This document shows, in pieces, positions 16,470 through 19,190 of a DNA stretch of 36,007 nucleotides (its first letter is position 1; every line of letters begins with the position of its first letter). A program made the position numbers and the translations under genes. Source of the stretch: Promethearchaeati archaeon (GTDB taxonomy: Archaea; Asgardarchaeota; Heimdallarchaeia; JABLTI01); NCBI GenBank assembly GCA_034660795.1, contig JAYEJY010000290.1, positions 1 to 36,007 on the forward strand. Reading direction: 5' to 3'. Below the pieces are notes generated by a model. It ran no database searches and was not told where the DNA came from. It was given only the letters and a program-made list of their open reading frames with translations.

Positions 16470-16715
16470 CTAATCTCCACTCCAATAATTTCCTTCCTGC
16501 CTTCTTTTTAATTCTGCTTTTTTCGATTTATTCCAATTATCGATTTTTGAAAAATATCCCACAACTCGACTCATGCCATAAACATTATGGCTGCCACAAT
16601 ATGGGCATGTAGGAGTATCATCAAAATCGCTTACTGATGATTCTTCTGCAAGTTCATCAGATGGTTTTATTTCGGTTACTTTTGCTACTTTTTTTTCTAT
16701 ATCTACTTGTTCCAT
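16470..16715 (-). CDS. Stand-alone NrdD C-terminal module: second zinc-ribbon half + glycyl-radical motif
   Basis: 81 aa. CPYCGSHNVYGMSRVVGYFSKIDNWNKSKKAELKRRQ matches the NrdD C-terminus (E. coli, from memory: CPKCG...RRVCGYLG...FNAGKQEEVKRRV). It has its own AAGAGGT motif ~13 nt upstream of the ATG. It is in the same frame as the large nrdD ORF but separated from it by three stops. Confidence 0.8.
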   Translation of the reverse strand: MEQVDIEKKVAKVTEIKPSDELAEESSVSDFDDTPTCPYCGSHNVYGMSRVVGYFSKIDNWNKSKKAELKRRQEGNYWSGD

Positions 16716-16763
16716 TTTTGGTTTTTACCTCTTTATTATGTTCACCTAGTTGTTTGAGATGTT

Positions 16764-19190
16764 CTACTCAGCTGTAGTGGCTTTTGAAGGGCTAGTAGAT
16801 CGACCATAGCCTCTACTTACTCGACCACAATCACGACAAATCGTAAATTCTGGTGAAAAAACGATTTGAGCACTTTGGGTATGATCCCATGTTTTTTTCA
16901 CAATATTTAATATCGATTCAGTGGATGGTTTATGTTCTCCTAAGAATATGTGAGTGATAGACCCACTTTCAATCAATGTATTGAATTTACCTTGTTTAGT
17001 AATCCGGTCAACAATATCAATAGGTGCATCTGCTGCGAAGTGGGCACTATTGGTATAATAAATTGAACCATCTTCTATGTCGCCTTTTACATAATGAACT
17101 GAATCGGGATATTCTTGAAGATCTGTTCGGGCTAATTTGTAAGGGGCGCTTTCCCCTGGTGTTTCTTCTAAAGTAATATGAAGGCTGTGTTTCTTTTGGA
17201 GCTGTTTTGCCTTTAAATTCATAGATGCGATAATTCGCAAACCAAGTTTATAGGCTTCCTCACTGTCATGCAGTTGTTCATCAATGAGATATTGAACACA
17301 TTCATTCAATCCAATAATTCCTATTATATAGGTTGCTTTCTCAAGATCAACATATGGCCGTCCGTCTGCTGCTTCCATACCTATTTGCCAGAGTGTGCCA
17401 TTTTCTTCTGACATAAGTTTATAGGCAAAAGCTTTCTTCTGGAGGTGGGCTTGCATGGCAATATCCATTGATTGTCTAATTTGCTCAATAGCTTCTTTGA
17501 TATTGCCTTTACCTGCTCTGTAAGCTGCTTGGGGAAGATTAATGCTTACATTTTGAAAACCACAATATCTCATACTTTCCGGATGTTCTAGCATATAGGT
17601 GTCTGTTATATTGGTTCGTAAGCGACAGCACATTGATAGGTTTACTTCATCACGATCGAATACAAAATATGTTGACCCATTTTCTGAAGCAAGACGACAA
17701 GCCAATTCTAATAATTCGCGTTGCTTAGGGTCTTCAAATGATTCTTCAGTGACATGGAGATCGCATTTCGGAAATGGAAATACTTTGCCTTGGGCATCGC
17801 CTTCCATCCAAACTTCCATGAGCGCTTTAGCAAACAGTTGTGCCTCTTCCTCATAATCGGCATAAGTTTTGCCAGTATATTTTCCACCAGGCCCAATAGC
17901 TGGTATATCTCGTAGATAGGAGGGTATTCCGAGGTGAATATTAAAATCTACGAAAAGGGCTTGCCCACCTCGAGAGAAAGCATTCTGACTACCCGAAAAG
18001 ATCAAGCGTTGGGCTTCTTGCTTAATTTCTTCATACGGTACGCCTACAAAATAGGGAGCGTAGAAGATATTGAGATAAGCTAATCCAAGAGCACCAGCAT
18101 AATACGCTTGCATGGAAGCAAGAAAGGTGTTCAAATGACCTGTAAGTGTGGCAGCATGCTTAGCTGGTTTTGAAATAGTTGAAAGATTAAGTAAGTCTAA
18201 ACCGTATTTCTTGATGTATTCAAGACTATGGGCAGAACAATAAACACGAACAGGGAATCCTAAGTCATGTAAATAGATTCGCCCTTTTCGATGAGCATTG
18301 GCTACTTCTTCATCGAAAATTTCTTGTAATGCGAATTTCTTTAGGATAGATTCAGCAATAGCCAAATTAACTGCTTCTGGATTATTTGCTACAACGTTAC
18401 TATTTTCATTGCTTTTTGATAATATTAATTGTTTCAGGTCATATACAGGCATACCTAGGGATTTCTGTTGGGTCAGTTTCTTATCATATCCCCGAACAAA
18501 TAATTCGTTATCAACAAGGCTTCGAATTAAATCAACAGAAATCACATCAATTCCTGAAGCAAAAACCTTGCGTTCAACTTCCGCTGCAATTGCTTCCGCA
18601 TCAATTTTAGGTAAATCAGCTTCCCGCATTAGTGCTTTGGTTATTTTACTTTTGTCCCAATCCATGATTTCTTCTTGAGTGTCTCCAGAAACCATAAGTA
18701 GTAATTCGGTGGAATCTTGTTGTTTTACATCTACTTCTTTTACAACACGAAGTTTATCGAGTTCTCGTTCAAAGGATGCTAAATCAGTGAAACGTCTATA
18801 AACAGATGCAAATCTAATATAAGCTACTTCATCCAATTCTTTGAGTTTCTCCATAACAAGTTCGCCTATAATTGAAGCTTCAATTTCGATTTCATCCATT
18901 TGTCGAAGTTCGCTTTCGATTTCATCAACCATTTCATCAATTTCTTCAAGGCTAACAGGTCGTTTTTCGCATGCCTTAATAATGCCTTTTTTAACTTTCT
19001 CTCTGTCAAAGGGTTCTCGACGTTTATCTTTCTTAACAATCGTTAGTTTTACATCTTCCACTCGTTCATAAGTAGTGAATCTTTTGTGACATTGTAAGCA
19101 TTCTCGGCGGCGGCGATTAACTTTCATATCATGTGAGTCACGTGTATCGATTACTCGAGTATTAGGTGATTGACAATAGGGACATTTCAT
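16764..19190 (-). CDS. nrdD: Class III (anaerobic) ribonucleoside-triphosphate reductase large polypeptide with N-terminal NrdR-like zinc ribbon + ATP-cone
   Basis: The NrdD body carries RIYLHDLGFPVRVYCSAHSL, SMCCRLR and YYTNSAHF, and ends at FTICRDCG (first CxxC only). The N-terminal ~150 aa (MKCPYC..TRVIDTRD..RRRRECLQCHKRFTTYE..REPFDREK..EKRPVS..VAYIRFASVYRRF) match NrdR. The start is placed at the first ATG (19190, GGTGA upstream); the track ORF extends to a GTG at 19235. Confidence 0.85.
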   Translation of the reverse strand: MKCPYCQSPNTRVIDTRDSHDMKVNRRRRECLQCHKRFTTYERVEDVKLTIVKKDKRREPFDREKVKKGIIKACEKRPVSLEEIDEMVDEIESELRQMDEIEIEASIIGELVMEKLKELDEVAYIRFASVYRRFTDLASFERELDKLRVVKEVDVKQQDSTELLLMVSGDTQEEIMDWDKSKITKALMREADLPKIDAEAIAAEVERKVFASGIDVISVDLIRSLVDNELFVRGYDKKLTQQKSLGMPVYDLKQLILSKSNENSNVVANNPEAVNLAIAESILKKFALQEIFDEEVANAHRKGRIYLHDLGFPVRVYCSAHSLEYIKKYGLDLLNLSTISKPAKHAATLTGHLNTFLASMQAYYAGALGLAYLNIFYAPYFVGVPYEEIKQEAQRLIFSGSQNAFSRGGQALFVDFNIHLGIPSYLRDIPAIGPGGKYTGKTYADYEEEAQLFAKALMEVWMEGDAQGKVFPFPKCDLHVTEESFEDPKQRELLELACRLASENGSTYFVFDRDEVNLSMCCRLRTNITDTYMLEHPESMRYCGFQNVSINLPQAAYRAGKGNIKEAIEQIRQSMDIAMQAHLQKKAFAYKLMSEENGTLWQIGMEAADGRPYVDLEKATYIIGIIGLNECVQYLIDEQLHDSEEAYKLGLRIIASMNLKAKQLQKKHSLHITLEETPGESAPYKLARTDLQEYPDSVHYVKGDIEDGSIYYTNSAHFAADAPIDIVDRITKQGKFNTLIESGSITHIFLGEHKPSTESILNIVKKTWDHTQSAQIVFSPEFTICRDCGRVSRGYGRSTSPSKATTAE

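What the first reader, a model, noticed from the sequence alone, without database searches (positions are those of the whole stretch)
16470..16830. NrdD split between its two CxxC pairs: the glycyl-radical domain is a separate 81-aa gene
In unsplit NrdDs the C-terminus reads CxxC...CxxC...RxxGY...N.GK..E..R: four Cys bind Zn and the Gly carries the radical. Here the large ORF ends ...FTICRDCGRVSRGYGRSTSPSKATTAE-stop, with only the first CxxC. The next gene supplies ...TPTCPYCGSHNVYGMSRVVGYFSKIDNWNKSKKAELKRRQ.

The two ORFs are in the same frame, 48 nt apart, with three in-frame stops (TAG, TAG, TAA). The small ORF has its own AAGAGGT motif and a ~35-aa acidic N-terminal leader. So this is not a single-base sequencing slip.

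A Zn site assembled across two polypeptides, with a separately encoded radical-bearing subunit, recalls GrcA/YfiD, the spare glycyl-radical part for pyruvate formate-lyase. It could allow cheap replacement of an O2-cleaved radical domain. That functional reading is inference.
Basis: partly seen in the sequence, partly recalled or inferred. Interest (0 to 1): 0.7.

Follow-up and report, generated by a model that had tools for sequence, protein, structure and literature searches.

The report
Two-gene anaerobic ribonucleotide reductase
The oxygen-sensitive enzyme that makes DNA building blocks is here encoded in two pieces, with the radical-bearing tip on its own 81-residue protein; the same split is conserved across a large group of archaea and tiny bacteria, and I found no paper describing it.

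Summary
All genes lie on the minus strand.

- **The two genes.** An 808-aa NrdD (16764..19190) ends 20 residues after the first CxxC. After a 48-nt gap, an 81-aa ORF (16470..16715) supplies the second CxxC, the RVVGY glycyl-radical loop and the C-terminal helix. A thioredoxin-like gene and nrdG follow.
- **Not an error.** All 64 relatives of the small ORF are short proteins. In 11 loci checked, each sits just downstream of a truncated NrdD (12 further GTDB Heimdall loci have none within 3 kb). Gaps run from -8 to +60 nt, in all three relative frames.
- **A clade-wide feature.** Of the 120 closest large-subunit relatives, 76 are split at the same loop and 44 are unsplit. The two groups separate in an NJ tree, with two apparent re-fusions. 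Split forms occur in Heimdallarchaeota, DPANN archaea and CPR bacteria.
- **Where the break falls.** It lies inside the Zn ribbon, in a loop that AlphaFold2 models with pLDDT below 50 in an unsplit relative.
- **Best reading.** This is an obligate two-chain class III RNR, probably held together by an inter-chain Zn(Cys)4 site.
- **GrcA-like "spare part" idea.** Untested. Orphan small-subunit paralogues in Heimdall MAGs and in viral contigs give circumstantial support.
- **Literature.** I found no description. A 2026 review calls non-PFL spare parts an open question.

The parts
16764..19190 (-). nrdD large subunit (808 aa from Met16; an upstream GTG at 19235 would give 823 aa). It comprises an NrdR-like Zn ribbon, ATP-cones, the alpha/beta barrel with an MCCR finger loop, and the first Zn knuckle. 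It has no glycyl radical motif.
   Evidence: Pfam NRDD profile 1-518/562, ATP-cone, Zn_ribbon_NrdR. TIGR02487 positions 1-539/581 at 358.7 bits, above the 326 cutoff. Foldseek of the AF2 model of the unsplit relative P0144 matches solved NrdD structures. Database protein P0065 is 808 aa.
18750..19190 (-). N-terminal NrdR-like module fused to NrdD (Zn ribbon plus ATP-cone; residues 1-147 in the 808-aa numbering).
   Evidence: phmmer against solved NrdR structures, E 6e-40 over NrdR residues 1-147. TIGR00244 NrdR full length, 198 bits against a cutoff of 124.65. In L009 and L012 the same module is a separate upstream gene.
16803..16838 (-). First Zn knuckle and hairpin, C-R-D-C-G-R-V-S-R-G-Y-G. 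This is the last conserved element of the large subunit. The CxxC codons are at 16827-16838.
   Evidence: Both Cys are invariant in alignment A3 (C785 and C788). The C..C.x(V/I)S(R/P/A)G(Y/F) pattern is conserved at every junction. It is equivalent to C..C.R.SRGL in unsplit relatives.
16767..16802 (-). Variable Ser/Thr-rich C-terminal tail of the large subunit (RSTSPSKATTAE).
   Evidence: Tail length varies from 9 to 47 residues among split relatives, and from 86 to 100 in the 'ALT' type.
16716..16763 (-). 48-nt intercistronic spacer with two further in-frame stops (TAG 16746-16748, TAA 16725-16727) and the AAGAGGT motif at 16727-16733.
   Evidence: GAGG lies 10-11 nt before the ATG in L001, L004 and L008 as well. 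There is no terminator-like site, no RNA structure beyond shuffles (z = -1.0) and no Rfam match.
16470..16715 (-). nrdD small subunit (81 aa). It has an acidic leader (residues 1-36), the second Zn knuckle C37-P-Y-C40 (16596-16607), the glycyl radical loop SRVVG53Y (Gly53 codon at 16557-16559) and a C-terminal helix.
   Evidence: Pfam NRDD 522-560/562. Aligns to 8p23 residues 697-735. Invariant C37, G47, R50-Y54, W61, N62 and others across 35 homologues. The AF2 model of the protein alone has mean pLDDT 60, below 50 at residues 1-3 and 17-31, and only helix 63-73 is predicted.
16097..16363 (-). Thioredoxin/glutaredoxin-like protein (88 aa, CPNC motif), the probable reductant for the RNR.
   Evidence: Pfam Thioredoxin_3 and Glutaredoxin. 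MJ0307-family thioredoxin. Conserved at this position in every locus examined that has a split NrdD.
15358..16113 (-). nrdG, the radical-SAM activase (251 aa; CNFRCPYC cluster motif).
   Evidence: Pfam Radical_SAM and Fer4_12. TIGR02495 NrdG2, 189 bits against a cutoff of 131.

Best explanation
The window encodes a real two-polypeptide class III (anaerobic, glycyl-radical) ribonucleotide reductase.

- **Large chain.** It carries the regulatory modules (NrdR-like Zn ribbon and ATP-cones), the catalytic barrel with the thiyl-radical finger loop (MCCR), and the first half of the C-terminal Zn ribbon (CxxC plus the VSRGY hairpin).
- **Small chain.** The 81-aa protein is translated from its own start codon and Shine-Dalgarno-like motif. 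It carries the second CxxC, the RVVGY loop whose Gly53 holds the radical, and the C-terminal helix.
- **Assembly (inferred).** The two chains share one Zn(Cys)4 site, two Cys from each. The Gly loop inserts into the barrel as in single-chain NrdDs.
- **Activation and reduction (inferred).** NrdG, encoded two genes downstream, installs the radical on the small chain. The adjacent thioredoxin-like protein probably supplies reducing equivalents; the MCCR motif is also compatible with formate.
- **Origin.** The split arose once, early in a large NrdD clade, in a loop that tolerates insertions. Purifying selection on both halves has kept it since.

Shown here: gene structure, homology, conservation and the position of the break. 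Inferred: assembly through Zn, activation of the free or bound small chain, and the reductant.
For: 1. **Complementary matches.** The two ORFs cover Pfam NRDD positions 1-518 and 522-560, and TIGR02487 positions 1-539 and 541-579.
2. **Homologues of the small ORF.** All 64 are short proteins (53-120 aa) carrying PF13597.
3. **Shared gene order in eleven loci.** L001-L010 and L012 show the order large, small, redoxin, nrdG. Gaps are +46, +52, +60, -1, -4 and -8 nt, in all three relative frames. This excludes assembly error and conserved recoding.
4. **Selection on the small protein.** Eighteen columns are invariant, including C37, R50-V-V-G53-Y54, W61 and N62. C40 is at least 90% conserved.
5. 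**Selection on the large protein.** Both first-knuckle Cys and the finger-loop CCRL are invariant in 26 large subunits.
6. **Clade-wide pattern.** Of the 120 closest large-subunit relatives, 63 are split, 13 are split with an extra Zn-ribbon tail, and 44 are unsplit with exactly 10 residues between the Cys pairs. In an NJ tree the split and unsplit forms separate. Only two unsplit sequences (P0144, P0129) nest inside the split clade, and both have lengthened linkers.
7. **Position of the break.** The AF2 model of unsplit P0144 (mean pLDDT 78, pTM 0.70) has pLDDT below 50 exactly at the 13-residue insertion after SRGYGR, where relatives are split. The model matches solved NrdDs.
8. **Independent cistrons.** Other genes are inserted between large and small in some loci, such as a ferredoxin-like ORF in L063.
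9. **Published context.** In P. copri NrdD the radical domain contains a structural Zn site and behaves as a mobile rigid body (PMC11226230).
Against: - There is no transcript, peptide or biochemical evidence for either chain.
- The inter-chain Zn site is inferred from Cys conservation only. I could not model the complex, because the tool handles single chains.
- The small protein alone is predicted with low confidence (mean pLDDT 60). That fits folding on binding but is not positive evidence for it.
- The NJ tree has no support values, its root is arbitrary, and two split sequences (P0132, P0174) fall on the unsplit side of the midpoint root.
- Nearly all sequences come from metagenome bins, so taxonomic labels are unreliable. 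'Bathyarchaeia' and 'Zixibacteria' loci share Heimdall synteny.
Confidence: 0.85

Rival explanations
1. Exchangeable radical cofactor (a GrcA-like 'spare part' system for NrdD). The split exists because it lets the cell discard an O2-cleaved or quenched 9-kDa radical subunit and load a fresh one onto the 93-kDa catalytic chain. Extra paralogues and virus-encoded copies serve as alternative or replacement subunits. This extends the best explanation rather than contradicting it.
For: - **Orphans in Heimdall MAGs.** In the species-representative genome scan, several MAGs carry one small gene next to the large NrdD plus one or two orphan small genes with an intact CxxC and radical loop, and no first-knuckle NrdD ORF in the flank of up to 3 kb (L052-L056, L059, L061, L062, L064-L066, L081, L103).
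- **Chromosomal context.** Four orphans lie directly downstream of uvrA in different MAGs.
- **Orphans in viral contigs.** L011, L015, L016 and L017 have no NrdD large gene within 4-5 kb, and these contigs are absent from the viral NrdD-large scan.
- **Scale.** In the exhaustive search, 80 of the best 149 cluster representatives are single-knuckle small proteins. Another 32 are ~107-aa proteins with the radical loop but no CxxC.
- **Parallel with YfiD.** The leader of the small protein is modelled with low confidence. YfiD has a disordered N-terminus that aids radical installation (PMC13450708).
Against: - In this window the large chain has no radical domain of its own. The small protein is therefore the primary subunit, not a spare.
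- The split is also present in DPANN and CPR lineages, so no association with oxygen exposure is apparent.
- Orphans in MAGs could result from binning contamination or prophages.
- Only a few kb around each orphan were seen, so a distant large gene is not excluded.
- There is no evidence that subunits exchange.
Confidence: 0.3
2. Neutral 'genes-in-pieces' event. An insertion or a nonsense mutation with a new start arose in a permissive surface loop and fixed by drift, because the two halves still assemble. The split confers no benefit, as argued for other split RNR genes.
For: - The break lies in a loop that tolerates 14-26-residue linkers in unsplit relatives and has low model confidence.
- Tails and leaders are highly variable.
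- Two apparent re-fusions suggest the state can reverse without penalty.
- DPANN Tiddalikarchaeum splits the gene once more, into 519, 280 and 59 aa.
- Split RNRs with functional halves are known: NrdJa/NrdJb (PMC4520616) and phage cases (PMC3653736).
Against: - The split persists across a very deep and wide clade with few reversions.
- A Shine-Dalgarno-like motif or overlapping stop and start codons are retained.
- Orphan paralogues and viral copies exist.
- No remnant of a homing endonuclease or intein was found at any junction inspected.
Confidence: 0.35
3. The two ORFs are joined into one polypeptide by stop-codon read-through, frameshifting, RNA splicing or a split intein. Alternatively, the stops are assembly errors or mark a pseudogene.
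For: In this window alone the ORFs share a frame and lie only 48 nt apart. The leader precedes a Cys, as a C-intein would.
Against: - Three stops would have to be read through.
- Orthologous junctions use all three relative frames, and some overlap by 1-8 nt.
- Leaders can be as short as about 8 residues and lack the terminal His-Asn or Asn of inteins. The large tail (9-47 aa) is far too short for an N-intein.
- There is no stable RNA structure (z = -1.0), no Rfam family and no terminator.
- Both halves are under strong purifying selection in more than 60 independent assemblies.
Confidence: 0.02

Closest known systems
Single-chain class III RNR NrdD (phage T4 1H78, T. maritima 4COI/4U3E, P. 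copri 8P23)
   Same: - Same barrel, finger-loop Cys, ATP-cone regulation and NrdG activase.
- Same C-terminal order: CxxC, hairpin, CxxC, RxxGY, helix.
- The closest unsplit relatives are 55-60% identical over the core.
   Different: - Here the chain is broken inside the Zn ribbon.
- The glycyl radical and half of the Zn ligands therefore sit on a separate 81-aa protein with its own leader.
- The N-terminus is also a complete NrdR-like module.
GrcA/YfiD of E. coli and Y06I of phage T4 (autonomous glycyl radical cofactors for pyruvate formate-lyase)
   Same: - It is a small stand-alone protein consisting of a radical-bearing loop preceded by a probably disordered N-terminal stretch.
- It would be activated by the cognate activase and docked into a barrel that lacks a working radical domain (PMC13450708).
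   Different: - It is NrdD-type, not PFL-type: only PF13597 matches.
- It carries a CxxC half-site for Zn.
- It is encoded in the operon as the only radical domain, so it is obligate rather than a back-up for an O2-cleaved full-length enzyme.
Split class II RNR NrdJa/NrdJb (Pseudomonas aeruginosa)
   Same: - Two consecutive genes encode a catalytic N-terminal chain and a small or medium C-terminal chain that contains a Zn-finger element.
- Both chains are required (PMC4520616; PMC9669993).
   Different: - It belongs to a different class: B12-dependent, with no glycyl radical.
- NrdJb carries the whole Zn finger and the redox Cys pair, so the break does not bisect the metal site.
- It was reported as confined to a few gamma-proteobacteria.
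Phage 'genes-in-pieces' RNRs (Aeh1 nrdA-a/b; T4 nrdD intron; split nrdD in T4-like phages)
   Same: RNR genes interrupted yet functional. nrdD is the most often split RNR gene in phages (PMC3653736).
   Different: - Those interruptions are introns, inteins or homing-endonuclease insertions at other positions.
- They are recent and sporadic.
- Here no mobile element is present, and the split is ancient and clade-wide in cellular genomes.

Membership tests
Class III ribonucleotide reductase (NrdD/NrdG) | RNR/GRE alpha/beta barrel recognised by NrdD family models | tested here: met
   PF13597 E 2e-113. TIGR02487 at 358.7 bits, above the 326.35 cutoff. The AF2 model of the close unsplit relative P0144 matches 8p23, 4u3e and 1h79 with probability 1.00.
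Class III ribonucleotide reductase (NrdD/NrdG) | Finger-loop cysteine(s) that carry the thiyl radical | tested here: met
   The sequence SMCCRLRT is in the large ORF. CCRL is invariant in 26 relatives. MCCR is a recognised double-Cys motif (PMC9669993).
Class III ribonucleotide reductase (NrdD/NrdG) | C-terminal RxxGY glycyl radical loop | tested here: met
   SRVVG53Y is present, but on the separate 81-aa chain. It is invariant in 35 homologues.
Class III ribonucleotide reductase (NrdD/NrdG) | Four-Cys structural Zn site next to the radical loop | tested here: inconclusive
   All four Cys are present and conserved, two per chain. Metal binding across chains was not testable.
Class III ribonucleotide reductase (NrdD/NrdG) | Dedicated radical-SAM activase nearby | tested here: met
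   NrdG2 TIGR02495 at 189 bits against a 131 cutoff, two genes downstream.
Class III ribonucleotide reductase (NrdD/NrdG) | Barrel and radical domain on one polypeptide (true of all characterised members) | tested here: not met
   A stop codon, a 48-nt spacer and a separate start divide them. The division is conserved in relatives.
GrcA/YfiD autonomous glycyl radical cofactor | Small stand-alone protein consisting mainly of a glycyl radical loop | tested here: met
   81 aa, with 18 invariant columns in the C-terminal 45 residues.
GrcA/YfiD autonomous glycyl radical cofactor | Homology to the PFL-type radical domain (Pfam Gly_radical) | tested here: not met
   Only PF13597 NRDD matches. No PFL-type family appears at E<=0.01. 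NCBIfam hits are all NrdD models.
GrcA/YfiD autonomous glycyl radical cofactor | Acts as a replacement for the resident radical domain of a full-length enzyme after O2 cleavage | tested here: not met
   The partner large subunit has no resident radical domain. Functional replacement as such is not testable with these tools.
Split RNR of the NrdJa/NrdJb type | Adjacent genes encoding the catalytic chain and a C-terminal chain of one RNR | tested here: met
Split RNR of the NrdJa/NrdJb type | Class II (B12-dependent) catalytic chain | tested here: not met
   All family matches are to class III models.
Split intein / intron-interrupted gene | N-intein of about 100 aa and C-intein of about 35 aa ending in Asn before a Cys/Ser/Thr, or a structured intron RNA | tested here: not met
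   The tail is 9-47 aa. Leaders can be as short as about 8 aa with no terminal Asn. RNA fold z = -1.0. There is no Rfam hit.

The most novel reading that the evidence does not exclude
The NrdD radical loop is a diffusible, exchangeable protein cofactor, the first 'spare part' system outside pyruvate formate-lyase.

On this reading the operon copy is the default subunit. Orphan paralogues in Heimdallarchaeial genomes, several next to uvrA, would be alternative or stress-time subunits. Viruses would encode their own versions, with or without the Zn half-site, to load or re-arm the host's catalytic chain during infection. The variable N-terminal leader would act, as in YfiD, in recognition by the activase.
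Probability: 0.3. Interest if true: 0.88.

Novelty: new variant of a known kind. Interest (0 to 1): 0.74.

Why it matters
Every characterised glycyl radical enzyme carries its radical loop on the same chain as the barrel. The only known free-standing radical loop is GrcA/YfiD for pyruvate formate-lyase.

[quoted passage not shown] - **A natural experiment on activation.** A split NrdD lets one ask how the activase reaches the buried glycine, and whether the radical is installed on the free or the docked loop. It also lets one ask what the Zn ribbon does, and whether a radical subunit can be exchanged after oxygen damage.
- **Annotation.** Small subunits are often called 'hypothetical protein', and large subunits look complete. 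No NCBIfam model covers the small chain.
- **Evolutionary context.** The clade includes Heimdallarchaeota, the archaea generally placed closest to eukaryotes (background knowledge, not tested here), so the trait bears on how they make DNA precursors.

Tried and rejected
1. **Sequencing or assembly error, or pseudogene.** Rejected. More than 60 independent assemblies show the same split, and both halves are under purifying selection.
2. **Read-through or frameshift recoding.** Rejected. Junction frames and gaps vary, and some stop and start codons overlap.
3. **Split intein.** Rejected. The tail and leader are too short and too variable, and no terminal Asn is present.
4. **Intron or structured RNA at the junction.** Rejected. 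The fold z-score is -1.0, there is no Rfam hit, and no terminator-like site.
5. **'VSRGY' as a second, degenerate radical motif.** Rejected. It aligns with the 'xSRGL' hairpin between the two Cys pairs of unsplit relatives.
6. **Mobile-element remnant between the genes.**
   - Longer gaps in L063, L083, L084 and L114 hold unrelated small ORFs, one of them ferredoxin-like by its Cys motifs.
   - None was recognisable as a homing endonuclease by eye; these ORFs were not scanned against Pfam.
7. **Literature.**
   - Seven full-text searches and several paper look-ups found no description of a split NrdD.
   - The one Asgard-plus-nrdD preprint concerns Tn7 attachment sites.
8. **Technical dead ends.**
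   - Scanning viral contigs with the mixed alignment A2 failed for lack of conserved columns and was redone with A3.
   - PMC153006, the T4 Zn-site paper, is not held.

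
Full report
**1. What is in the window**

All relevant genes are on the minus strand.
- The large ORF, 16764..19235, most likely starts at Met16 (19190) and gives 808 aa. This equals database protein P0065 and coincides with the start of the NrdR alignment.
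- It ends ...SPEFTICRDCGRVSRGYGRSTSPSKATTAE-TAG.
- A 48-nt spacer follows. It holds two more in-frame stops and an AAGAGGT motif 11 nt before an ATG.
- Next is an 81-aa ORF (16470..16715) with a 36-residue acidic leader. The leader is followed by CPYCGSHNVYGMSRVVGYFSKIDNWNKSKKAELKRRQEGNYWSGD.
- Downstream lie a thioredoxin-like gene (16097..16363) and nrdG (15358..16113).

The family models confirm a clean division.
- Pfam NRDD covers profile positions 1-518 in the large ORF and 522-560 in the small one.
- TIGR02487 covers 1-539 and 541-579.
- Against P. copri NrdD (8p23), the large ORF aligns up to residue 688, just after the first CxxC. The small ORF aligns from 697, just before the second.

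**2. It is not an error or a recoding site**

- A search with the small ORF returned 64 proteins, all 53-120 aa and all carrying the NRDD domain. They come from Heimdallarchaeota, other Asgard bins, DPANN archaea and mislabelled bins.
- In 11 loci fetched (L001-L010, L012), the small gene sits directly after an NrdD that ends just past the first CxxC. It is followed by a redoxin gene and nrdG.
- The junctions differ: gaps of +46, +52 and +60 nt, or overlaps of 1, 4 and 8 nt, in all three relative frames. The shared frame in this window is therefore incidental, and no conserved read-through or frameshift is possible.
- Where a spacer exists, GAGG lies 10-11 nt before the ATG.
- The spacer has no terminator-like site, no RNA structure beyond shuffled controls (z = -1.0) and no Rfam match.
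- Tails (9-47 aa) and leaders (as short as about 8 aa, with no terminal Asn) rule out a split intein.
- In some DPANN and CPR loci other small genes lie between the two halves. They are independent cistrons.

**3. Both halves are under selection**

- Among 35 small proteins, 18 columns are invariant: C37, S42, G47, R50, V51, V52, G53, Y54, S56, W61, N62, S64, K65, E68, R72, Q73, G75 and Y77. C40 is at least 90% conserved. The leader is variable, apart from a clade-specific MEQxK...K(I/V)TEI motif in Heimdall sequences.
- Among 26 large subunits, the first-knuckle Cys pair, the finger-loop CCRL and many barrel residues are invariant.

**4. The split defines a clade**

- A search with the NrdD core gave 4283 hits at E <= 1e-10.
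- Of the best 120:
  - 63 end within 47 residues after the first CxxC.
  - 13 also end without the second CxxC or the radical loop, but carry an extra ~90-aa tail with a second Zn-ribbon-like motif.
  - 44 are unsplit, with exactly 10 residues between the Cys pairs.
- For the extra-tail type, locus L012 lies beside FtsA and FtsZ genes in a genome recorded only as 'bacterium CG_4_10...'. It reads nrdR, large, 70-aa small, thioredoxin, nrdG.
- The conserved 'VSRGY' after the first CxxC of split forms aligns with 'xSRGL' in unsplit forms. It is the hairpin of the Zn ribbon, not a second radical motif.
- In an NJ tree of the core the unsplit sequences form one group and the split ones the other.
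- Two unsplit sequences nest among split ones. Their linkers are 26 residues (P0144, locus L014) and 14 residues (P0129). Secondary re-fusion is the most economical account.
- The tree has no support values and its root is arbitrary. This is a working inference.
- A scan of species-representative genomes places split forms in Heimdallarchaeota, Woese-, Nanohalo-, Micr- and Nanoarchaeota and Saccharibacteria. Unsplit forms occur in anammox Planctomycetota (Brocadia, Kuenenia, Jettenia) and others.
- DPANN Tiddalikarchaeum splits the gene a second time, into 519, 280 and 59 aa.

**5. Where the break falls structurally**

- An AF2 model of unsplit P0144 (mean pLDDT 78, pTM 0.70) matches solved NrdDs.
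- Its only low-confidence C-terminal stretch, residues 826-838, is exactly the insertion after SRGYGR, where relatives are split.
- In P. copri NrdD the glycyl radical domain (676-739) comprises the structural Zn site, the buried Gly loop and a surface tail. It moves as a rigid body (PMC11226230).
- The split therefore does not fall at a domain boundary. It bisects the Zn ribbon and leaves two ligands on each chain.
- The small protein modelled alone is mostly unstructured: mean pLDDT 60, only helix 63-73, and leader residues 17-31 below 50. That is what one expects of a piece that folds on its partner.

**6. Most likely mechanism**

The enzyme is an obligate heterodimer, presumably a dimer of heterodimers.
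- The large chain binds substrate and effectors and holds the thiyl Cys.
- The small chain docks through a shared Zn(Cys)4 site and inserts Gly53 next to the finger loop.
- NrdG installs the radical.
- The adjacent redoxin probably re-reduces the active site. MCCR motifs are compatible with thioredoxin or formate (PMC9669993).

The gene structure, homology and conservation are shown. Assembly, activation and reductant are inferred. Confidence is 0.85 for a real two-chain enzyme and about 0.7 for Zn bridging.

**7. The spare-part idea**

GrcA/YfiD membership fails on two defining features.
- The small protein is NrdD-type, not PFL-type.
- The partner has no resident radical domain.

The functional analogy nevertheless gains some support.
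- Several Heimdall MAGs carry one operon copy plus one or two orphan small genes with an intact CxxC and radical loop, and no first-knuckle NrdD ORF in the flank of up to 3 kb.
- Four orphans lie directly downstream of uvrA.
- Viral contigs carry orphans too (L011, L015-L017). Those contigs do not appear in a scan for NrdD large genes.
- In an exhaustive profile search (1272 hits at E <= 1e-3), 80 of the best 149 cluster representatives are single-knuckle small proteins. Another 32 form a ~107-aa family with the radical loop, a different N-terminal domain and no CxxC. A related 177-aa ORF sits in a contig with a T4-like portal gene.

Caveats: MAG contamination is possible, the flanks seen are short, and no exchange data exist. 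I give the exchangeable-cofactor reading about 0.3 and a purely neutral split about 0.35. Both are compatible with the core explanation.

**8. Novelty**

- Seven full-text searches and several paper look-ups found no description of a split NrdD.
- Crona et al. [quoted passage not shown]
- A 2026 review says spare-part proteins are known only for formate lyases and that their existence for other GREs is undetermined.
- NCBIfam has no model for the small chain. It scores 48 bits against a 326-bit cutoff, so many copies are named 'hypothetical protein'.
- I cannot exclude that RNRdb curators or subscription-journal papers have noted the split.
- I rate it a new variant of a known kind, with interest 0.74. 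A specialist would be surprised, and an explicitly stated open question becomes testable.

Noticed in passing
window 18750-19190 (-); also L009 2181-2642 and L012 2985-3455: The NrdD large subunit begins with a complete NrdR-like module (Zn ribbon plus ATP-cone). It scores E 6e-40 against solved NrdR structures and 198 bits on TIGR00244, above that model's cutoff. In other lineages (L009, L012) the same module is a separate gene immediately upstream. A bacterial-type repressor has therefore been fused to the enzyme it normally regulates.
   Followed up: partly
L052-L056, L059, L061, L062, L064-L066, L081, L103 (GTDB Heimdallarchaeota contigs): Orphan paralogues of the small radical subunit, with intact CxxC and RVVGY and K-rich rather than acidic leaders, have no first-knuckle NrdD ORF in the flank of up to 3 kb. 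There are up to three small genes per MAG. L056, L062, L064 and L103 lie directly downstream of uvrA.
   Followed up: partly
L011 5001-5279; L015 ~3953-4159; L016 3983-4147; L017 630-812: Viral contigs (16.8-144 kb; L011 carries a queuosine-precursor gene set) encode stand-alone NrdD-type radical-loop proteins of 55-92 aa. No NrdD large gene lies within 4-5 kb. These contigs are absent from the viral NrdD-large scan.
   Followed up: partly
P0249, P0266, P0283, P0293, P0316-P0320 and others (32 cluster representatives); L018/L019 3647-4180: A family of ~107-aa proteins has the NrdD radical loop (MSRVVGYYS..NWN.SK.GELKDRQKGNY) but no CxxC, plus a distinct ~65-aa N-terminal domain. A related 177-aa ORF lies in a contig with a T4-like portal gene. 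PHROGs has no family for them.
   Followed up: no
L007 2600-5180 (Ca. Tiddalikarchaeum, DPANN): Here NrdD is encoded in three consecutive genes (519, 280 and 59 aa), a second split inside the barrel.
   Followed up: no
P0096, P0099, P0101, P0108, P0114, P0115 etc.; L012 3501-5849; L096: A bacterial subclade of split large subunits (L012 lies beside FtsA and FtsZ; probably CPR) carries an extra ~90-aa C-terminal tail with its own CPxCG...CGD..GGC Zn-ribbon-like motif after the SAGYKR hairpin. Its function is unknown.
   Followed up: partly
P0232 (189 aa), P0277 (176 aa), P0246 (1072 aa): In some organisms the small radical subunit, or the C-terminus of a full NrdD, appears to be fused to a C-terminal domain with a CxxC motif that may be thioredoxin-like. 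This was judged by eye and not scanned against Pfam. Such a fusion would link the redoxin functionally to the radical domain.
   Followed up: no
L026/L034 ~5965-6075; L021, L028, L033: Some viral NrdDs are interrupted elsewhere. L026 and L034 break after the second CxxC, just before the Gly motif, which may mark an intron. A few (L021, L028, L033) appear split at or near the same loop as the cellular clade.
   Followed up: no
window 13394-15259 (-): A eukaryote-type topoisomerase IB (Topoisom_I_N, Topoisom_I and Topo_C_assoc domains) lies just downstream of nrdG. It holds the same position in the eight Heimdall-type loci whose contexts were listed (L001-L006, L008).
   Followed up: no
L063 2537-2794: In a Saccharibacteria contig an 86-aa ORF that looks like a 4Fe-4S ferredoxin from its Cys motifs is inserted between the large and small nrdD genes. 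It was not scanned against Pfam.
   Followed up: no
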